DNA from: a virus
Length of the DNA: 5,604 nucleotides
IMG/VR virus record: IMGVR_UViG_3300045988_002413
Span: 1 to 5,604 of that record
Reading direction: 5' to 3' (one strand)
Positions 1 through 5,604 of this stretch are shown piece after piece. The translations under genes were made by a program, and so were the position numbers. The first letter of the stretch is position 1. Every line of letters starts with the position of its first letter. Under the pieces are notes generated by a model, which searched no databases, was not told where the DNA came from, and worked only from the letters and a program-made list of their open reading frames with translations.

Positions 1-55
1 AGGCGAAAAAAAGTTAATCGAAACGGAACCGATTGACATTCAGGCCGAAATTGAA
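1..55. repeat. Terminal direct repeat, identical to 5550-5604. This is the assembly overlap of a circular genome with a unit length of 5,549 nt.
   Basis: Base-by-base comparison: aggcgaaaaaaagttaatcgaaacggaaccgattgacattcaggccgaaattgaa occurs at both ends. The reading frame of the wrapping ORF is continuous across the junction. Confidence 0.95.
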
Positions 56-304: not shown

Positions 305-1970
305 CGAGAGACACTTTAACAGTGTACCGCAGACACATGTAAGCCGGACACGTTTCAAACGAGATCAGAACATTCTCACGACCTTCGATGCAGGAAAACT
401 TATCCCATTTTACGTAGATGAAGTTCTTCCGGGTGATACTTTCGGCGTGGACACGGCAGCAATTATCCGAATGACTACGCCGAAATATCCAGTAATGGAC
501 GATGCATACATCGACTTCTATTACTTCTACTGTCCGAACAGAATCTTGTGGGACAACTTCAAGCGATTCATGGGTGAAGCAGACGAAACACCGTGGATGC
601 CGACAAAAACATATAAAGTACCCAAAATTAAAATCAGAGGAGACGAAACAGAAAAAGCATATCCAGCAGAAAAAACAATCCTAGACTATATGGGCGTACC
701 GACAAAAGTAGTAAAAGGATTTGACGAAGAAATCCAAGTTAACGCATTACCTATCAGAGCGTACATTAAAATCTGGAACGAGTTTTTCAGAGACCAAAAC
801 GTTGGAAATCCGGCAGTAAACACCACAAACGACGACGACAGAGACTACGGAACAGGCACAACGACAGGAGATGAAAAAGACGCAACAGAAGAAAATATCC
901 TAAACAACGCAGTAAACGGCGGATTCTGCCTTCCTGTCAGCCGATTCCACGACTACTTCAGTTCCTGTCTGCCGTATCCGCAGAGAGGACCGGAAGTGAC
1001 AATCGCACTGACCGGAAATGCACCTATAAAAATGTACGATGACAACGGAATCAACGGGCAGACGAACCCAACAACAATCTGGATGAGCGGAAACGCATCT
1101 TATCTGTCACAAAACAACAATGATGAAACAATGATCGCACTAGGGGCAACAGAGCAGGCAGGCGGAGTATCTGTATCAAGATACATTGCAACAGACCTAA
1201 GTAACATCGAAGCAACATCCATCAACCAGCTCCGTAAAGCCTTCGCGGTTCAGCACTATTACGAAGCACTGGCACGCGGGGGCAGCCGATACCGTGAGCA
1301 GGTACGAGCGCTTTTTGGAGTAACAATCAGCGACAAAACCGTTCAGGTGCCTGAGTATCTGGGTGGCGGACGCTATCACGTAAATATTAACCAGATCGTG
1401 CAGACTTCTGGACAGCAGACCGCAAATGATACGCCTATCGGTGAAACGGGTGCAATGTCCATCACGCCTATCAACGAAAGCTCCTTTACAAAGAGCTTCG
1501 AGGAACACGGCTTTGTAATCGGTGTCATGTGTGTTCGCCATAATCGAAGCTATCAGCAGGGTTTGGAAAGGTTCTGGAGCCGTACCGACAGACTAGACTA
1601 CTATTTCCCGCAGTTCGCAAATCTGGGCGAACAGCCTGTAAAGAAGAAAGAGATCATGTTGACTGGCACGAGCACAGATAATGAGACTTTTGGATACCAG
1701 GAAGCCTGGGCAGAATATCGCATGAAGCCGGACAGAGTAAGCGGAAAAATGCGCAGTAACGCAGAAGGAACGCTGGACTTCTGGCACTATGCGGACAACT
1801 ACGACACCGTGCCGACACTGAGCCAAGAGTGGATGAACGAGGGTAAAAACGAAATTGCAAGAACACTCATCGTACAGAATGAACCCCAATTTTTCGGTGC
1901 AATCCGAGTAATGAACGAGACCACTCGTTGTATGCCGCTGTACAGCGTGCCGGGTCTGGAAAAACTGTAA
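291..1970 (+). CDS. VP1: Major capsid protein VP1 (Microviridae F-protein family), 559 aa
   Basis: Typical microvirus capsid blocks are present: N-terminal [95 protein letters not shown], and [17 protein letters not shown] at 279-285 lies 5 nt upstream of the ATG. Confidence 0.95.
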
Positions 1971-2010: not shown

Positions 2011-2895
2011 ATGGCAATTCCATGGGGAGCAATTATAAAAGGAGCAAGCGTACTTGGAAATGTAGCAACAAGCATAGGAAGCATAACAAACGCCGTAAAA
2101 AATGTTACAGGCAGTTTTGGCGGATGGGGAAGTGAAGGAACAGGCCAAAGTAGTGGAGGAAGTGTAAGCCAAGGAGGCGGAGCATCCGTAAGCGGAAGTC
2201 AATCCGGAACGAATGATGAACAGATCGCGAAATATTTACAGCAAGCATACGGATATCAAAGCGCAGAAGGCATAGCACAACAAAAATATAACCAAAAAAG
2301 CATGCTTCAACAGATGGGATATAACACAATGCAAGCGATCATGCAAGGCGTATATAACCACATCGAGAACACAACCGCAATGAATTACAACAGCGCCGAA
2401 GCGCTGGCAAACAGACAGTTTCAAGAGCGTATGAGCAACACATCATATCAAAGAGCGGTTGAAGACATGAAAAAGGCAGGTCTAAATCCGATTCTAGCAT
2501 TTGCAAACGGTGGAGCAAGCACACCGGGAGGCTCAGCGGGAACTATCAGCGGGGCAAGCATGGGACTAGCAAGCAGTAGCGCACTAGGAGTCAGCAGAAG
2601 CAGCGGATTTGTTCCGAACTCATACAGCAGCTCAAGCTGGAGTAAATCAGACTGGTATAACGCATCGCAAAGCTGGAATCAAATGCTAAGTGAAACACAT
2701 CTAAGTCCTTACGGCTTAATGAAAGCACTAACGAATATCGATAACAAAACAAACGAAACAATTGAAGACATCACGGATAAAATGGGGAAGAAAGCAAACG
2801 GCAATACCAAAGTAGGACACAAAACGAACAACCCAATGCAGAATAAAACCGGAGACTATGGAGAAAAAAGAAAGCCAGGTGATTATCTGAAATGA
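2011..2895 (+). CDS. VP2: Minor capsid / DNA pilot protein VP2, 294 aa
   Basis: It lies directly after VP1. It has a hydrophobic N-terminus ([25 protein letters not shown]) and a Gly/Ser-rich low-complexity tract. It carries the block I recognise from gokushovirus VP2 proteins, [25 protein letters not shown]. Its stop overlaps the VP4 start (ATGA). Confidence 0.85.
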
Positions 2896-3911
2896 GTTGT
2901 TACAAGCCACTAATAAGGCTGTACAACCCGGATGATAAAGAACAGAGCGGGCGGGTATATTCACTCGCCCGCTTTTCTCAGTTAAGCGGGAAACAGCTAA
3001 AATATGAAGATTTGATGTATAATCCAAAAGTCATGCTGATTCCATGCGGGCAATGCATCGGATGCAGAATCAGACAAAGAGAAGACTGGACAACGAGAAT
3101 AGAGCTGGAAGCGAGAGACTATCCGAAAGAAGAAGTTTGGTTTATCACGCTAACCTATGACGATGAACATGTGCCGGGCATGATAGTAAAAACAGGTGAA
3201 ATCATGCGAAAGGTACAATACACGTGGAAGCCGGGAGAGAAGCGCCCAGAGAGCGTGCAAATTCTACTGTATGAAGACATTCAGAAGTTCTTAAAACGTC
3301 TCAGAAAGGCTTACAGGGGCAAACTACGCTATTTCGTAGCAGGAGAGTACGGAGAACAAACAGCAAGACCACACTACCATATGATTCTATACGGCTGGAG
3401 ACCAACAGATCTAGAAAATCTGTACAAAATTCACCACAACGGATACTATACAAGTAAATGGCTAGAAAGCCTGTGGGGAATGGGTCAAATACAGATAGCA
3501 CAAGCAGTTCCAGAGACCTACAGATATGTTGCAGGATATGTAACAAAAAAAATGTACGAAATAGACGGCAAGAAAGCAAATGAGTACTATGAACTAGGGC
3601 AAACAAAACCATTTGCTTGCATGAGCTTAAAGCCAGGCCTCGGAGACCATTACTATCAAGAACACAAGGCAGAAATCTGGCGGCAAGGGTACATTCAGTG
3701 TACCAACGGGAAAAAAGCACAAATTCCAAGGTACTATGAAAAACAAATGGAAGCAGAAAACCCACAAAGATTATGGAGAATTAAACAGAACCGACAAAAA
3801 AACGCAATGCAGCAGAAGAAACTACAGCTAGAAGACCAAGATTATAAAACTGTCTTAGAGACCAAAGAGCGTGTTACCAAAAAACAAACGAAAAAACGTG
3901 GTGTTTTATAA
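2892..3911 (+). CDS. VP4: Rolling-circle replication initiation protein VP4 (HUH endonuclease, phiX174 gene A family), 339 aa
   Basis: Motif I is FITLTYD (aa 84-90). Motif II (HUH) is [10 protein letters not shown] (aa 159-168). Motif III is [11 protein letters not shown] (aa 210-220), with two Tyr spaced as in phiX174 A (YVAKYVNKK). N-terminal Cys cluster: C3 plus PCGQCIGCR (aa 51-59). SD AGGTGA is at 2877-2882. There is a 4-nt ATGA overlap with VP2. Confidence 0.93.
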
Positions 3912-3923
3912 TTGGTGTCACCT

Positions 3924-3960
3924 AGCCCAGTACCTATCAAGTAGAGTACTGGGCTTTATT
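3924..3960 (+). terminator. Rho-independent-type terminator downstream of VP4
   Basis: Perfect 10-bp stem: 3924-3933 agcccagtac pairs with 3946-3955 gtactgggct. The loop is 12 nt and the tail is T-rich (ttattatt). It begins 13 nt after the VP4 stop. Confidence 0.6.
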
Positions 3961-3968
3961 ATTCTAAT

Positions 3969-4018
3969 CGCGCACACACGTACGCGCGAAAACTACACGC
4001 GCACGCGTGCGCGCGTAT
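3969..4018. repeat. Two GC-rich, perfectly alternating pyrimidine-purine tracts with embedded palindromes. These have hairpin, cruciform and Z-DNA potential.
   Basis: 3969-3988 cgcgcacacacgtacgcgcg is 20 nt of strict Y-R alternation. 3994-4018 tacacgcgcacgcgtgcgcgcgtat is 25 nt of the same. A perfect 14-bp palindrome gcgcacgcgtgcgc lies at 3999-4012. The 8-bp inverted pair tacgcgcg (3981-3988) / cgcgcgta (4010-4017) is also present. The tracts are followed by the AT palindrome attataat (4017-4024). Confidence 0.8.
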
Positions 4019-4034
4019 TATAATATAACTTGTT

Positions 4035-4050
4035 GTAGTAGTAGTAGTAG
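4035..4050. repeat. Trinucleotide microsatellite (GTA)5 / (TAG)5
   Basis: gtagtagtagtagtag is read directly from the sequence. Confidence 0.9.
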
Positions 4051-4055
4051 AGTAT

Positions 4056-4220
4056 GTGGAAAAGTTGAAAAGTATAATTTTAAAACGTTAGAGCGTTAAA
4101 AATAAACAAAAAACAATGTTGAAAACTTTGTTGAAAACTTGTTGAATTGTTGAAACACTCTATTGTGCTAAAGTTTAACAATGTTGAAAAGTTGAAAACT
4201 ATGTTGAAAGTGTTGAAAAC
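4056..4220 (+). repeat. Array of about 10 same-orientation GTTGAAAA-type repeats (iteron-like) in non-coding DNA
   Basis: Copies start at 4056 (GTGGAAAA), 4064, 4118, 4130, 4141 (GTTGAATT), 4149 (GTTGAAAC), 4183, 4191, 4203 (GTTGAAAG) and 4212. The 10-mer GTTGAAAACT occurs 3 times (4118, 4130, 4191). The 14-mer AACAATGTTGAAAA opens two sub-clusters (4112-4125 and 4177-4190). No ORF of 60 aa or more is present in any frame. Confidence 0.9.
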
Positions 4221-4285: not shown

Positions 4286-4310
4286 AAATATTAAAAAAAA
4301 ATTACAAATA

Positions 4311-4339
4311 TTGAAAAAGGACTTGACAAAAGCTATAAT
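4311..4339 (+). promoter_or_regulatory. Sigma70-type promoter candidate for the hydrolase cassette
   Basis: -35 TTGAAA (4311-4316), a 17-nt spacer, then consensus -10 TATAAT (4334-4339). It lies about 45 nt upstream of the ATG at 4385 and downstream of the VP4 terminator. Confidence 0.55.
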
Positions 4340-4384: not shown

Positions 4385-4768
4385 ATGAAAAATATCGTAT
4401 ACATCAAAGAAGACTATGGAAAACTAAGCGAGCACTTCAAAGCAAGTGAATTTCAGTGCAAAGACAAAACGGAAGGACTGCTAGTAGCAACTGAACTAAT
4501 CGAAACACTGGAAAAAATCAGAAACCACTTTGACGCACCGGTCATCATCAATTCGGGATACAGAACACCGAACTGGAACAGCAAAGTAAACGGAGCACCA
4601 AATTCGTACCACTGCAAAGGAATGGCAGCAGACATCATAGTAAAAGGACACTCAAACAAAGAAGTTGCAAAGTACGCAGATAGCATCATGGAACAGGGCG
4701 GTGTGATCAGATACACAAACTTTACGCACATTGATGTGCGTGAAGAGAAATACAGAAAGGGGGTATAG
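4385..4768 (+). CDS. Peptidase M15 (Peptidase_M15_3 / M15A-like) zinc peptidoglycan peptidase, 127 aa. Candidate endolysin.
   Basis: Family signature by eye: HFKASEF (aa 17-23), SGYRTPNWN (aa 57-65), SYHCKGMAAD with H76-x6-D83, and FTHIDV with H115 and D117. This is the H/D/H zinc triad plus an acidic residue typical of VanX/M15 cell-wall peptidases. There is no N-terminal hydrophobic signal or TM segment. Confidence 0.85.
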   Translation: MKNIVYIKEDYGKLSEHFKASEFQCKDKTEGLLVATELIETLEKIRNHFDAPVIINSGYRTPNWNSKVNGAPNSYHCKGMAADIIVKGHSNKEVAKYADSIMEQGGVIRYTNFTHIDVREEKYRKGV

Positions 4769-4771
4769 CTA

Positions 4772-4876
4772 ATGGCGTTGATTAAGGTGAAGGACTTGAA
4801 GGAAGCAATCCAGCTGATCAAAAAAGTGTTGGAAAAACTGGACGAAATTTACCACATCTTGAAGAAAGAGGAGTAA
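4772..4876 (+). CDS. Small hypothetical protein, 34 aa (MALIKVKDLKEAIQLIKKVLEKLDEIYHILKKEE). Predicted single amphipathic or coiled-coil helix.
   Basis: It is below the ORF-track cut-off. The ATG at 4772 lies 8 nt after the G-rich SD AAAGGGGG (4756-4763). It fills exactly the gap between the hydrolase stop (4768) and the next gene. Its own last codons (GAGGAG, 4868-4873) supply the SD for the ATG at 4881. Hydrophobic residues V6, L9, I13, I16, L20, L23, Y27 and L30 follow a 3-4-3-4 heptad spacing. Confidence 0.5.
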   Translation: MALIKVKDLKEAIQLIKKVLEKLDEIYHILKKEE

Positions 4877-4880
4877 AATA

Positions 4881-5102
4881 ATGCTACACAAGACATGGAA
4901 CGTCAGAGACCAGACCGAAAAAGATTTAAGGCTAGAAGCGGATAAGCTATACCGTGAAATCGAAGCCGGATACAAAATGATCAAAAAAATCTCAGACAAA
5001 GAGGAAGCTCATAAAATCATCGAAAGAATCTGGATAATGAAATCATGGGCTAACGACATTCAACTTGAACTGATCCGAAGGGAGTACAACAATGAAGCAT
5101 AG
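4881..5102 (+). CDS. Hypothetical protein, 73 aa, highly charged and helical. No family recognised.
   Basis: ORF on the gene strand. SD GAGGAG at 4868-4873 lies 7 nt upstream of the ATG. Its end overlaps the next gene start by 11 nt, typical of a coupled phage operon. No TM segment is present. Confidence 0.6.
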   Translation: MLHKTWNVRDQTEKDLRLEADKLYREIEAGYKMIKKISDKEEAHKIIERIWIMKSWANDIQLELIRREYNNEA

Positions 5103-5211
5103 GCAGAGAATGCCAGCGAAAACGGACAAGCGCATGTTCAACGTAACAGCACGAAAAACGAAGAGTATCAACTTAAGCCAAAAGCCCATGCGAGGCGGCA
5201 TCAGACTGTAA
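5092..5211 (+). CDS. Small basic DNA-binding / packaging protein, 39 aa (gokushovirus ORF8-like, functional analogue of phiX174 J)
   Basis: It is below the ORF-track cut-off. The sequence is MKHRQRMPAKTDKRMFNVTARKTKSINLSQKPMRGGIRL, with 11 K/R residues. The C-terminal MRGGIRL and the F..TA.. block match my memory of the Chlamydia-phage ORF8 peptide (ending ...MRGGIRF). SD AAGGGAG at 5078-5084 lies 7 nt upstream of the ATG. Confidence 0.7.
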   Translation: MKHRQRMPAKTDKRMFNVTARKTKSINLSQKPMRGGIRL

Positions 5212-5222
5212 AGGAGAAAAAA

Positions 5223-5465
5223 ATGATTCACAATTACTATGGCATCTACGACAGCGTAGCAAAGACATACTGCTACATCGGTGAAAGCAAGAGCAACGAA
5301 ACCTTTGCACGAATGTGCAATATCATGGCAAAGGACGAAAAAACGTTCCTTGGACAGTCGCCTGAAGACTACAAGGGCTACCACATCGCAAACTTCAACG
5401 ATGAAACCGGCCAGTTCGAAAGCATCGAGCCGGATAAAGTCTGGGAGGGCAAGCCGCATGAATAA
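5223..5465 (+). CDS. VP5: VP5-like non-structural protein of gokushoviruses, 80 aa
   Basis: The pattern YGIYDSVAKTY...ETFARMC...SPEDYKGYHIANFNDETGQF matches the conserved VP5 pattern as I recall it (hydrophobic-x-D-x-K/V-A ... A-x-R-x-F ... PEDY/F ... G-x-F/Y-D-D-x-T/N-G). SD AAGGAG at 5211-5216 lies 6 nt upstream of the ATG. Its position immediately upstream of VP3 fits. Confidence 0.7.
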   Translation: MIHNYYGIYDSVAKTYCYIGESKSNETFARMCNIMAKDEKTFLGQSPEDYKGYHIANFNDETGQFESIEPDKVWEGKPHE

Positions 5466-5604
5466 ACGATACGAGGAAGGGCGCGAGCCCTTCTTTTCAA
5501 ATCCAGGCGAAAAACTGCGCAAGCAGTACGTATGGGGCAAGGACGAAAAAGGCGAAAAAAAGTTAATCGAAACGGAACCGATTGACATTCAGGCCGAAAT
5601 TGAA
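5458..5604 (+). CDS. VP3: Internal scaffolding protein VP3, N-terminal portion. It runs off the window end and continues at position 56 of the window through the circular junction.
   Basis: The ATG at 5458 overlaps the VP5 stop (gcATGAATAA). The frame stays open to the last base of the window (MNKRYEEGREPFFSNPGEKLRKQYVWGKDEKGEKKLIETEPIDIQAEIE). It is in phase with the frame that ends at 304. Confidence 0.7.
   Translation, partial: MNKRYEEGREPFFSNPGEKLRKQYVWGKDEKGEKKLIETEPIDIQAEIE
5476..5497 (+). terminator. Terminator-like hairpin with a GCGA tetraloop and T-tract, located inside the first 14 codons of VP3
   Basis: Stem 5476-5482 gaagggc pairs perfectly with 5487-5493 gcccttc (7 bp). The loop is gcga, followed by TTTTcaaat. 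Confidence 0.4.
5550..5604. repeat. Terminal direct repeat, second copy of 1-55
   Basis: Identical 55-mer to positions 1-55. Confidence 0.95.

What the first reader, a model, noticed from the sequence alone, without database searches (positions are those of the whole stretch)
4385..4768. M15-family peptidoglycan peptidase in an ssDNA microvirus, with no visible export or holin partner
The 127-aa protein shows the Peptidase_M15_3 signature (SGYR, SxH-x6-D, H-x-D). This is the zinc D,D- or L-Ala-D-Glu-type peptidase fold used as an endolysin by some dsDNA phages. Classical microviruses lyse without a muralytic enzyme: phiX174 protein E blocks MraY. The lysis mechanism of gokushoviruses is not established. 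I recall sporadic metagenomic reports of such peptidases in microviruses but cannot verify them here. The protein has no signal peptide or SAR-like N-terminus. No + strand ORF in the genome has a holin-like transmembrane hairpin. The only hydrophobic stretch I see is the VP2 N-terminus. How the enzyme reaches the wall is therefore open. Options are an unconventional partner among the downstream small proteins, release by membrane damage from another phage product, or a role at entry rather than exit.
Basis: partly seen in the sequence, partly recalled or inferred. Interest (0 to 1): 0.7.

Follow-up and report, generated by a model that had tools for sequence, protein, structure and literature searches.

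The report
Known microvirus cell-wall peptidase, no holin
This small single-stranded DNA gut phage carries a real zinc cell-wall-cutting enzyme of a kind already reported in such phages since 2012; how the enzyme crosses the membrane without any helper protein is still unexplained.

Summary
ORF 4385-4768 (+) encodes a 127-aa single-domain Peptidase_M15_3 (MEROPS M15A) enzyme: Pfam E=1.5e-25 and PHROG "endolysin" E=6.6e-37. The AlphaFold model has pLDDT 93.8, and its best PDB match is 1LBU. Every active-site residue of the characterised phage endolysin LysPM1 is present and invariant in relatives (dN/dS 0.14-0.27).

The window is a complete circular gokushovirus of 5,549 nt with a 55-nt assembly overlap. 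The protein has no signal or SAR segment. No + strand frame encodes a membrane helix, here or in 98 peptidase-bearing relatives. Minus-strand ORFs are no longer than chance predicts.

It is not new. Roux et al. 2012 described M15_3 peptidases in gokushoviruses as probable endolysins. GenBank microviruses carry annotated homologues, the closest at 72% identity, and hundreds of 80-88% identical proteins exist.

New context:
- The downstream small ORFs are core genes of the clade, not peptidase-specific partners.
- 23 of 51 peptidase-less sister genomes carry a 32-42 aa single-TM ORF that no peptidase-bearing genome has.
- dsDNA-phage homologues sit beside holins.

Most likely this is an acquired endolysin-type lysis enzyme whose route to the wall is unresolved.

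The parts
4385..4768 (+). Peptidase gene: 127-aa single-domain M15A / Peptidase_M15_3 zinc peptidoglycan peptidase (14.5 kDa, pI 8.5)
   Evidence: Pfam E=1.5e-25. PHROG endolysin E=6.6e-37. AF2 pLDDT 93.8. Foldseek best match 1LBU. dN/dS 0.14-0.27 against relatives.
4553..4564 (+). S57-G-Y-R60 motif. R60 corresponds to the substrate-carboxylate-binding Arg (R47 of LysPM1, R138 of 1LBU).
   Evidence: Invariant in 40 microviral homologues. Residue mapping taken from PMC13461873.
4604..4633 (+). SxHxxGxAxD motif (S74 to D83). H76 and D83 are zinc ligands.
   Evidence: H76 and D83 are invariant in the 66-sequence alignment A2 and in 40 microviral copies.
4721..4735 (+). F113-x-H115-x-D117. H115 is the third zinc ligand and D117 the probable acid/base residue.
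   Evidence: H115 and D117 are invariant; F113 is F or W. They correspond to F102, H104 and D106 of LysPM1.
4311..4339 (+). Best sigma-70-type promoter match in the window (TTGAAA-17-TATAAT, 11 of 12), 46 nt upstream of the peptidase ATG. The peptidase is the first gene after it.
   Evidence: A TTGACA-type promoter is conserved at this position in relatives. It is a consensus match only; function is inferred.
4772..4876 (+). o34: 34-aa amphipathic-helix ORF immediately downstream. A core gene of the clade, not specific to the peptidase.
   Evidence: Conserved in 40 of 42 relatives next to the peptidase and also present in peptidase-less genomes. Hydrophobic moment 0.69. No family match.
4881..5102 (+). 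o73: 73-aa charged helical ORF. A core gene of the clade, not specific to the peptidase.
   Evidence: It was found in all 51 peptidase-less genomes sampled, though these were retrieved or retained through this same protein.
2011..2124 (+). VP2 (pilot protein) N-terminal Gly/Ala-rich hydrophobic segment. It is the only hydrophobic stretch in a real + strand gene and a speculative candidate for causing a membrane lesion.
   Evidence: KD19 of 1.26. VP2 matches PHROG 8742 'pilot protein for DNA ejection' at 2.6e-114. Any role in lysis is pure inference.

Best explanation
The gene encodes an active, horizontally acquired, catalytic-domain-only zinc peptidase of MEROPS subfamily M15A (Pfam Peptidase_M15_3). 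The gokushovirus uses it as an endolysin-type accessory lysis enzyme.

Proposed sequence of events:
1. The gene is transcribed as the first gene behind a strong sigma-70-like promoter.
2. The protein is made as a soluble cytoplasmic protein with no export signal.
3. At the end of infection it cuts peptide stems or cross-links of the host peptidoglycan.
4. Because the genome encodes no holin, pinholin, SAR anchor or signal peptide, access to the wall must depend on something else.

The most likely source of access is membrane damage by a factor shared with the whole clade, since related genomes lacking the peptidase must also lyse their hosts. Candidates are the pilot protein VP2 and the small amphipathic core proteins o34 and o73.

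Shown here: family, fold, intact active site, purifying selection, absence of export signals and of TM partners, and holin linkage of the dsDNA-phage homologues.
Inferred: muralytic activity in vivo, a role in lysis, and the route to the wall.
For: Family and fold:
- Pfam, PHROG and PDB matches.
- A high-confidence model whose best solved match is the M15A type enzyme 1LBU.

Active site: R60, H76, D83, Y110, F113, H115 and D117 correspond one-to-one to R47, H63, D70, Y98, F102, H104 and D106 of LysPM1. LysPM1 is a 116-aa single-domain Peptidase_M15_3 endolysin shown to be Zn-dependent and lytic on permeabilised Proteus (PMC13461873). Proteus-phage homologues are 46-47% identical to the window protein. 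These residues are invariant in 40 microviral copies, apart from F113, which is W in two; dN/dS is 0.14-0.27.

Homologues in dsDNA phages are annotated as endolysins and sit in lysis cassettes:
- L044: peptidase, then a TM holin-like ORF, then i-spanin-like and lipobox o-spanin-like ORFs.
- L172: a TM holin-like ORF immediately upstream of a 218-aa protein with an M15 domain and a C-terminal part that I read by eye as a peptidoglycan-binding domain (not run against Pfam).

Absence of partners:
- No TM ORF on the + strand in the window or in 98 peptidase-bearing relatives.
- Minus-strand ORF lengths match chance (observed 181 aa; codon-shuffle null 186 +/- 37).

Literature: Roux 2012 proposed the same role. 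Cultured lytic microviruses of Ruegeria and Roseobacter also carry M15 peptidases.
Against: - No microviral M15 peptidase has been tested biochemically or genetically in any paper I found.
- A cytoplasmic endolysin without a holin, SAR domain or signal peptide has no established way to reach the wall.
- 28 of 51 peptidase-less sister genomes have neither a peptidase nor a TM mini-ORF. Lysis in this lineage therefore does not strictly need either, and the peptidase could be dispensable or serve another purpose.
- Being the first gene behind a strong promoter is unusual for a lysis enzyme that must act late.
- The host is unknown. Only distant VP1 relatives (37-43% identity) are integrated in Clostridia and Phascolarctobacterium MAG contigs.
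Confidence: 0.7

Rival explanations
1. Enzymatic 'amurin'. The peptidase never leaves the cytoplasm. It trims peptidoglycan precursors, for example by removing D-Ala from UDP-MurNAc-pentapeptide or lipid II, or by cutting the stem peptide. This starves cross-linking, and growing cells lyse. The logic is the same as for phiX174 E, Qbeta A2 or M Lys, but achieved by catalysis rather than by inhibitor binding. No holin would be needed.
For: - The holin-less state is stable across 98 relatives.
- The closest solved structure is a D-Ala-D-Ala carboxypeptidase, followed by VanY, VanXY and VanX, which act on precursors.
- NCBI names relatives 'D-Ala-D-Ala carboxypeptidase family metallohydrolase'.
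- Single-gene lysis through the wall-precursor pathway is the established pattern for small phages, from knowledge of phiX174 E/MraY and from Roux 2012.
Against: - The characterised family member LysPM1 lyses cells from outside, so it acts on mature peptidoglycan.
- dsDNA-phage homologues are paired with holins, which would be unnecessary for an enzyme acting in the cytoplasm.
- No evidence on specificity exists for the microviral enzyme.
Confidence: 0.1
2. A dedicated non-canonical partner is encoded downstream. In this reading o34 and/or o73, both amphipathic helices, permeabilise the membrane specifically for the peptidase and so function as a holin without a TM segment.
For: - They lie immediately downstream and are co-oriented, and the order is conserved in 40 of 42 relatives.
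- Both have high helical hydrophobic moments, 0.69 and 0.68.
- Roux 2012 noted unknown ORFs adjacent to 5 of 11 microviral peptidases.
Against: - o73 and o39 are present in all 51 peptidase-less sister genomes sampled (ascertained through o73), and o34 homologues in many of them. These genes therefore predate the peptidase or are independent of it.
- Neither has a hydrophobic segment.
- Neither matches any family.
Confidence: 0.1
3. Entry enzyme. The peptidase is packaged in or on the virion and opens the wall locally during DNA delivery, like virion-associated peptidoglycan hydrolases of tailed and membrane-containing phages.
For: M15A domains also occur fused to tail or hub proteins: Gp5 OB-fold proteins of 510-646 aa and a 1,191-aa 'cell wall hydrolase' appear among the BFVD matches.
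Against: - The protein is free-standing, with no capsid- or pilot-binding extension.
- A T=1 capsid packed with DNA, VP2 and the basic o39 protein leaves little room.
- Most gokushoviruses, including close sister genomes, enter without such an enzyme.
- The nearest homologues outside microviruses are endolysins placed beside holins.
Confidence: 0.05
4. No lysis role. The peptidase is a neutral hitch-hiker or decaying acquisition, or it modulates the host wall for another purpose such as superinfection exclusion.
For: - The slot between VP4 and o34 is a variable accessory position. In relatives it holds unrelated 58-124 aa ORFs.
- Many relatives do without a peptidase.
Against: - Purifying selection is strong, with dN/dS of 0.14-0.27, and the catalytic residues are invariant across copies down to 46% identity.
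- The gene is retained in essentially the whole clade: 98 of 99 genomes that share at least 49% o73 identity.
- A 5.5-kb genome has little tolerance for useless DNA.
Confidence: 0.05

Closest known systems
M15_3 peptidases of human-gut Gokushovirinae and Alpavirinae (Roux et al. 2012, PMC3394797); GenBank examples KT264792 (72% identical, unannotated there), MG945781 (61%, 'similar to peptidase') and KX513864/68/77 ('peptidase M15')
   Same: Same Pfam family, same virus subfamily and same gut habitat. The gene sits in the same place, between VP4 and the small ORFs, VP5 and VP3. These were also proposed to be endolysins acquired by horizontal transfer.
   Different: Only sequence divergence. 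This genome is one more member. 472 homologous protein clusters were found (E<=1e-5); the 120 listed are 80-100% identical and come from contigs no longer than about 12 kb, many of them 5-6 kb.
LysPM1, endolysin of Proteus phage Homer (M15A, single Peptidase_M15_3 domain, 116 aa; PMC13461873). Other characterised M15A endolysins named in that paper are from Burkholderia phage ST79 and Shewanella phage Spp001 (Spp64).
   Same: Small single-domain architecture. Same SxHxxGxAxD and (F/W)xH motifs with the downstream Asp. 1LBU is the best structural match for both. Related Proteus-phage proteins are about 46% identical to the window protein.
   Different: LysPM1 belongs to a tailed dsDNA phage with a conventional lysis cassette. 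The microviral enzyme has a 12-residue N-terminal extension, lacks the CxCxC cluster seen in the dsDNA-phage copies, and has no holin or spanin nearby.
Streptomyces albus G zinc D-Ala-D-Ala carboxypeptidase (PDB 1LBU), the type enzyme of MEROPS M15A
   Same: Best sequence match (E=1.8e-4) and best structural match (Foldseek E=1.3e-4, rmsd 2.8 A over 88 columns). Same zinc-ligand motifs.
   Different: 1LBU is a secreted 213-aa bacterial enzyme with an extra N-terminal peptidoglycan-binding domain. Identity is only 27%. Substrate specificity cannot be transferred.
phiX174 protein E and other single-gene lysis proteins ('amurins') of small phages
   Same: Both provide lysis for a tiny ssDNA phage without a holin-endolysin pair.
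   Different: E is a TM protein overprinted in another gene that inhibits MraY and has no enzymatic activity on the wall. Here the product is a soluble hydrolase encoded by its own non-overlapping, horizontally acquired gene.
E. coli MepK (YcbK, DUF882 / Peptidase_M15_2), a peptidoglycan L,D-endopeptidase
   Same: Same clan. There is a weak overlapping match to PF05951 (E=6.4e-7), and JGI auto-names the protein 'YcbK'.
   Different: The NCBIfam MepK equivalog model scores 43.6 bits against a cut-off of 185. MepK is exported and this protein is not. It is not a MepK orthologue.

Membership tests
Peptidase_M15_3 (Pfam PF08291) / MEROPS M15A | Profile HMM score above the curated gathering threshold over the full domain | tested here: met
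   89.8 bits against a cut-off of 23.2, E=1.5e-25, profile positions 2-108 of 108.
Peptidase_M15_3 (Pfam PF08291) / MEROPS M15A | SxHxxGxAxD motif supplying the His and Asp zinc ligands | tested here: met
   The S74-Y-H76-C-K-G79-M-A81-A-D83 motif is present. H76 and D83 are invariant in alignments A1 and A2 and in 40 microviral copies.
Peptidase_M15_3 (Pfam PF08291) / MEROPS M15A | Third zinc ligand His in a (W/F)xH motif, followed by an acidic residue (HxD) | tested here: met
   The F113-T-H115-I-D117 motif is present. H115 and D117 are invariant. It maps to F102, H104 and D106 of LysPM1.
Peptidase_M15_3 (Pfam PF08291) / MEROPS M15A | Conserved Arg that binds the substrate carboxylate (R138 of 1LBU, R47 of LysPM1) | tested here: met
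   R60 in the SGYR motif is invariant in 40 of 40 copies. The correspondence rests on alignment position and the paper's description.
Peptidase_M15_3 (Pfam PF08291) / MEROPS M15A | LAS / Hedgehog-DD-peptidase fold | tested here: met
   AF2 pLDDT 93.8. Foldseek best match 1LBU, followed by VanY, VanXY, VanX, Hedgehog-N and Ply500.
Peptidase_M15_3 (Pfam PF08291) / MEROPS M15A | Zinc binding and peptidoglycan peptidase activity | not testable with these tools
   This needs purified protein, metal analysis and muropeptide analysis.
Canonical holin-endolysin lysis cassette | A small membrane protein (holin or pinholin) encoded with the endolysin | tested here: not met
   There is no + strand window with KD19 of at least 1.5 inside a real ORF. 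None occurs in 98 peptidase-bearing relatives. Minus-strand ORFs match chance. dsDNA-phage homologues do have a holin-like ORF.
Canonical holin-endolysin lysis cassette | Alternatively, a signal peptide or SAR anchor on the endolysin | tested here: not met
   The N-terminus is MKNIVYIKEDYGKLSEHFK. The maximum KD19 of the whole protein is 0.29, and at most 1.22 in any of 40 homologues. N-terminally extended gene calls of 136-179 aa are basic and not hydrophobic.
Canonical holin-endolysin lysis cassette | Spanin or other outer-membrane disruptor (for diderm hosts) | tested here: not met
   No lipobox ORF and no ORF with an N-terminal TM segment is present. Whether one is needed depends on the host, which is unknown.
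MepK / YcbK equivalog (NCBIfam NF053624) | Score above the equivalog cut-off | tested here: not met
   43.6 bits against a cut-off of 185.
Gokushovirinae (genome context) | VP1 F-type capsid, VP2 pilot, VP3 Chlamydia-phage-type scaffold, VP4 Rep and VP5, all on one strand of a circular genome of about 4.5-6 kb | tested here: met
   The closest GenBank records are gokushoviruses.

The most novel reading that the evidence does not exclude
The peptidase is a holin-independent lysis enzyme. It acts from inside the cytoplasm on wall precursors, or reaches the wall by a route that needs no membrane protein. Under this reading it is functionally interchangeable with the 32-42 aa single-TM mini-protein found at the o39/VP5 junction of the sister lineage. 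Gokushoviruses would then swap between an 'enzymatic' and a 'membrane-protein' single-gene lysis module.
Probability: 0.1. Interest if true: 0.8.

Novelty: already known. Interest (0 to 1): 0.3.

Why it matters
How gokushoviruses, the most abundant ssDNA phages of the gut and oceans, lyse their hosts is still unknown. The acquired M15 peptidase is the only recognisable lysis-type gene they carry.

This genome adds nothing new by itself. However, its lineage offers a clean natural experiment:
- About 100 genomes carry a peptidase and no membrane protein.
- Sister genomes carry a tiny TM protein and no peptidase.
- Other sister genomes carry neither.

Showing how a signal-less, holin-less endolysin reaches the wall would extend the catalogue of phage lysis strategies. 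So would showing that it works on precursors from inside the cell. It could also yield a very small (14.5 kDa) lytic enzyme.

Tried and rejected
1. Minus-strand holin. The minus strand has many long, hydrophobic ORFs (up to 181 aa). Shuffling codons within the + strand genes gives a longest minus-strand ORF of 186 +/- 37 aa, and 52% of shuffles reach the observed value. These ORFs are a by-product of the T-poor (18%) coding strand.

2. Overprinted TM ORF inside VP1 ('ALLSVLCVYAIITAISRVW'). It is open, with a start codon, in only about 6 of 42 relatives. In the window it is cut by a stop (ORF 1426-1518 ends ...NTAL*). It is a shifted reading of a hydrophobic VP1 strand, not a conserved gene.

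3. ORF 3871-4023 ('...VLGFIILIAHT...'). Its hydrophobic core is only 9 residues. It overlies a hairpin (3924-3955) that shows compensatory base changes in L028, L035 and L040. The conservation is therefore at the nucleic-acid level.

4. 'LVVVVVVEYVEK' at 4029. This is a (GTA)n run plus iterons in non-coding DNA.

5. N-terminally extended peptidase calls (136-179 aa) in databases. These are basic upstream read-through, not signal peptides.

6. Rfam. Only sub-threshold hits were found: Termite-leu at 26.5 bits against 51, and mir-466. They are treated as chance.

7. MepK orthology is rejected.

8. Host identification through prophages. Only distant VP1 relatives (36-43% identity) turned up, in Clostridia, Bacilli, Phascolarctobacterium and Gammaproteobacteria MAG contigs, and none carried the peptidase. 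This is not informative for this clade, beyond weak support for Bacillota hosts.

9. Family searches for the sister-clade TM mini-ORFs and the accessory-slot ORFs found no PHROG or NCBIfam match.

10. Ruegeria phage DSS3-P22, a cultured microvirus with an M15 peptidase. A hydrophobic alternative-frame stretch exists at about 2642-2700 inside ORF 2432-2764. The genome is GC-rich and the frame overlaps two other ORFs, so the result is inconclusive.
Full report
WHAT THE WINDOW IS. The 5,604-nt window begins and ends with the same 55 nt. It is therefore a circular genome of 5,549 nt carrying an assembly overlap. All recognisable genes lie on the + strand:
- VP1 at 291-1970 (Phage_F, E=5e-136).
- VP2 pilot protein at 2011-2895 (PHROG 8742, 2.6e-114).
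- VP4 Rep at 2892-3911.
- A 473-nt non-coding region.
- The peptidase at 4385-4768.
- Three small ORFs: o34 at 4772-4876, o73 at 4881-5102, and the Arg/Lys-rich o39 at 5092-5211.
- VP5 at 5223-5465 (PF20577).
- VP3 starting at 5458 and running across the junction of the circle (Chlamy_scaf).

The closest GenBank records are human, pig and monkey gut gokushoviruses, at 76-81% nucleotide identity over parts of the genome. The same genome occurs in several ENA and Logan assemblies, including an 8.4-kb 1.5-mer concatemer.

THE OBSERVATION.
- It matches Pfam Peptidase_M15_3 end to end (E=1.5e-25, 89.8 bits against a cut-off of 23.2).
- It matches PHROG 894 'endolysin' (E=6.6e-37).
- Its only significant sequence match in the PDB is 1LBU, the Streptomyces albus G zinc D-Ala-D-Ala carboxypeptidase and type enzyme of MEROPS M15A.
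- An AlphaFold2 model built on a 66-sequence alignment is confident (pLDDT 93.8, pTM 0.88).
- Foldseek places the model with 1LBU first, then VanY, VanXY, VanX, the Hedgehog N-terminal domain and the Listeria phage endolysin Ply500. Together these are the LAS zinc-peptidase fold.
- Against predicted viral structures, the best non-microviral matches are 341-349-aa 'peptidase' proteins of gut Caudoviricetes at 48-49% identity. M15A domains also appear fused to tail-hub proteins.

ACTIVE SITE AND SELECTION. A 2026 paper characterised LysPM1, a 116-aa single-domain Peptidase_M15_3 endolysin of a Proteus phage (PMC13461873).
- It is Zn-dependent and lytic on permeabilised cells.
- Its zinc triad is H63, D70 and H104. 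It also has R47, Y98, F102 and the probable acid/base residue D106.
- By alignment position these correspond to H76, D83, H115, R60, Y110, F113 and D117 in the window protein.
- Related Proteus-phage proteins are 46-47% identical to the window protein.
- In 40 full-length microviral copies spanning 46-100% identity, all of these residues are invariant, except that F113 is W in two copies. Pairwise dN/dS is 0.14-0.27.

The gene is therefore under purifying selection with an intact catalytic apparatus. D117 is better described as a catalytic residue than as a zinc ligand.

EXPORT SIGNALS AND PARTNERS. The protein's most hydrophobic 19-residue window has a Kyte-Doolittle mean of 0.29, so there is no signal peptide, lipobox or SAR helix. 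Some database gene calls are N-terminally extended to 136-179 aa, but the extensions are basic upstream read-through.

I scanned all three + strand frames of the circular genome, stop to stop. The + strand is only 18% T, which in itself disfavours hydrophobic codons. The only windows of at least 1.2 were:
- a (GTA)n run in non-coding DNA;
- a 9-residue patch overlying a conserved DNA hairpin;
- the VP2 N-terminus (1.26).

The minus strand has many long hydrophobic ORFs. Shuffling codons within the + strand genes produces equally long ones (186 +/- 37 aa against 181 observed), so they carry no evidence of coding.

COMPARATIVE GENOMICS. I collected 42 peptidase-bearing relatives by the peptidase, and about 110 more genomes of the wider clade by the o73 protein.
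- The order peptidase-o34-o73-o39-VP5-VP3-VP1-VP2-VP4 is conserved.
- o73 and o39 are also present in all 51 genomes that lack the peptidase, and o34 homologues in many of them. These genomes were found or retained through o73, so its presence is partly by construction. These small ORFs are core genes of the clade, not peptidase-specific partners.
- The segment between VP4 and o34 behaves as an accessory slot. In peptidase-less genomes it holds unrelated 58-65 aa ORFs with no family match.
- 23 of 51 peptidase-less genomes carry a 32-42 aa single-TM ORF at the o39/VP5 junction. Examples are MSAVFASMTMAFLAAGFYLVINAINIIKDWFK and MNIMIWVGVIASIIAMCSASFALIAMGTDIIKNWGKNK.
- That ORF starts at a GTG overlapping the o39 stop (GTGA) and is preceded by a Shine-Dalgarno-like GAGGGGG.
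- None of the 98 peptidase-bearing genomes has such an ORF. In the window, o39 ends at 5211 and VP5 starts at 5223.
- The uncorrected Fisher p is 3e-13. The two states are phylogenetically clustered, so the real support is much weaker.
- 28 of 51 peptidase-less genomes have neither module. Lysis in this lineage must therefore also rest on something not yet recognised.

HOMOLOGUES IN dsDNA PHAGES SIT IN ORDINARY LYSIS CASSETTES.
- In a 44-kb podophage-like contig (L044), the 114-132 aa peptidase is followed by a TM holin-like ORF, an ORF with an N-terminal TM segment (i-spanin-like), and an embedded lipobox ORF (o-spanin-like).
- In a human-gut phage scaffold (L172), a 106-aa TM ORF immediately precedes a 218-aa protein with an M15_3 domain and a C-terminal part that I read by eye as a peptidoglycan-binding domain (not run against Pfam).

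The microvirus has kept only the catalytic domain and none of the accessory machinery.

EXPRESSION AND HOST HINTS.
- The best sigma-70-type promoter match in the whole window (TTGAAA-17-TATAAT, 11 of 12) lies at 4311-4339, 46 nt upstream of the peptidase ATG.
- A TTGACA-type promoter is conserved there in relatives.
- A stem-loop directly after VP4 (3924-3955) may terminate the genome-length transcript, or may belong to the origin of replication.
- Most genes have clear Shine-Dalgarno sequences.
- These features argue against a Bacteroidota host. They fit Bacillota or Pseudomonadota.
- The only integrated VP1 relatives found are distant (37-43% identity). They lie on Clostridia and Phascolarctobacterium MAG contigs and lack the peptidase.
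- Roux 2012 found gokushovirus peptidases clustering with Faecalibacterium homologues.

MECHANISM. Best supported (confidence 0.7): this is an acquired endolysin-type M15A peptidoglycan peptidase that contributes to host lysis.
- Shown: family, fold, intact active site, purifying selection, and the endolysin context of homologues.
- Inferred: in-vivo muralytic activity, and above all the route to the wall.

Relatives without the peptidase must also lyse, and the peptidase has no partner of its own. The most economical idea is therefore that a clade-wide factor damages the membrane and the peptidase then completes wall breakdown. Candidates are VP2, whose N-terminus is the only hydrophobic segment, and the amphipathic o34 and o73.

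Rivals:
- Cytoplasmic action on precursors, an 'enzymatic amurin' (0.1).
- A dedicated partner among o34 and o73 (0.1), weakened by their presence in peptidase-less genomes.
- A virion-associated entry enzyme (0.05).
- No lysis role (0.05), which runs against the purifying selection and clade-wide retention.

NOVELTY. The phenomenon is published. Roux et al. 2012 reported Peptidase_M15_3 genes in 5 gokushoviruses and 6 alpaviruses. They showed horizontal acquisition, noted the association of homologues with holin-endolysin cassettes, and proposed an endolysin role. Later work repeats this:
- Kirchberger et al. [quoted passage not shown]
- Kirchberger et al. 2022: peptidases are recurrent lysis-associated accessory genes.
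- Zucker et al. 2022.
- A 2024 study of cultured roseophage microviruses.

GenBank holds microviruses with annotated homologues (the closest, at 72%, is itself unannotated). The protein database holds 472 homologous clusters, including 'MAG TPA: peptidase [Microviridae sp.]' at about 85% identity. I found no paper that tests a microviral peptidase experimentally or addresses the missing holin. That sub-question remains open, and it is the only part of the finding with real interest.

VERDICT. Novelty is 'already known' and interest is 0.3. The residual value lies in the holin-less state being stable across about 100 genomes, and in the apparently exclusive TM mini-ORF of the sister lineage. 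Together these make the lysis question experimentally approachable.

Noticed in passing
window 4056-4219 (plus 4310-4317): Array of about 10 direct GTTGAAAA iterons within 164 nt of non-coding DNA upstream of the peptidase promoter. With at most 1 mismatch there are 19 matches in the window against 8.2 +/- 2.7 expected, and 0 of 200 shuffles reach that number. The array keeps its orientation and is conserved in both the peptidase-bearing and the peptidase-less clades. Its function is unknown: possibly a protein-binding array, an origin of replication, or a transcriptional control element.
   Followed up: partly
window 3924-3955: Perfect 10-bp stem (AGCCCAGTAC / GTACTGGGCT) with a conserved 12-nt loop CTATCAAGTAGA, directly after the VP4 stop and followed by TTTATTATT. 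Relatives show compensatory stem changes: L028 and L035 have CCA/TGG in place of CCC/GGG, and L040 has GTCC/GGAC. It is a selected structure, either a terminator or a hairpin of the replication origin. The promoter/terminator scan missed it because the loop is longer than 8 nt.
   Followed up: partly
window 3970-4050: Alternating purine-pyrimidine, GC-rich near-palindromes (CGCGCACACACGTACGCGCG ... ACGCGCACGCGTGCGCGCGT), followed by the conserved TAACTTGTTGTAG(TAG)n. The AACTTG resembles the core of the phiX174 origin nick site (from memory, not tested). The element is conserved across relatives.
   Followed up: no
L100 1366-1464; L105 2837-2953; L047 2290-2391; L048 4756-4872 (and 19 more loci): The sister gokushovirus lineage without the peptidase carries a 32-42 aa single-TM ORF between o39 and VP5. 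It has a GTG start overlapping the o39 stop (GTGA) and an upstream Shine-Dalgarno-like sequence. It is present in 23 of 51 peptidase-less genomes and 0 of 98 peptidase-bearing genomes. It matches no PHROG or NCBIfam family. It is a candidate undescribed single-gene lysis or holin-like protein.
   Followed up: partly
L100 288-371 and the equivalent position in about 30 peptidase-less loci: Nearly invariant 27-codon ORF MLNTMNFYPWNDIFW(L/I)ILMLILLWITC embedded in the iteron region of the peptidase-less clade. Either it is a real hydrophobic micro-protein, or the conservation is at the nucleotide level in a regulatory or origin element. This is unresolved.
   Followed up: no
window 1426-1518 (+), alternative frame inside VP1: In several relatives the shifted frame over a hydrophobic VP1 strand gives a 42-78 aa ORF with a TM-like stretch (ALLSVLCVYAIITAISRVW). 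In the window it is cut by a stop just before the hydrophobic part. It is probably a by-product of VP1 coding, not an overprinted lysis gene.
   Followed up: yes
window 1-55 and 5550-5604: A 55-nt exact terminal direct repeat shows that the window is a circular genome of 5,549 nt with an assembler overlap. VP3 (131 aa) starts at 5458 and runs across the junction of the circle. The ORF lister does not report it because it runs off the end of the window.
   Followed up: yes
L001 4672-4863 and homologues in 15 peptidase-bearing and 2 peptidase-less loci; L009 3405-3779: Many relatives have an extra accessory ORF of 63 aa (MPKMKHTYELRKLEADD...) or 124 aa between the iteron/promoter region and the peptidase. 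A second TTGACA...TATAAT promoter then precedes the peptidase. The window lacks this ORF. The VP4-to-o34 interval is a hot spot for gene gain and loss.
   Followed up: partly
MG945388.1 1270-1468 (hit H58): The conserved non-coding segment corresponding to window 4019-4218 matches this pig-faeces microvirus on the opposite strand relative to its peptidase gene. This suggests a local inversion of the iteron region in that genome.
   Followed up: no
L171 (Ruegeria phage DSS3-P22, MF101922) 2432-2844: This cultured 4.2-kb microvirus with an M15 peptidase has an unannotated 70-aa highly basic ORF (2632-2844, J/VP8-like) in its 'empty' gap. An overlapping 110-aa frame contains a strongly hydrophobic stretch (KD 2.29). 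Whether the latter is a membrane protein is unclear, because the genome is GC-rich.
   Followed up: partly
L165 (ENA ERZ1304597 NODE_1210, 8406 nt): The same genome is assembled as a 1.5-unit concatemer, with VP2 and VP4 each present twice. This is an assembly artefact of a circular genome, not a larger element.
   Followed up: yes
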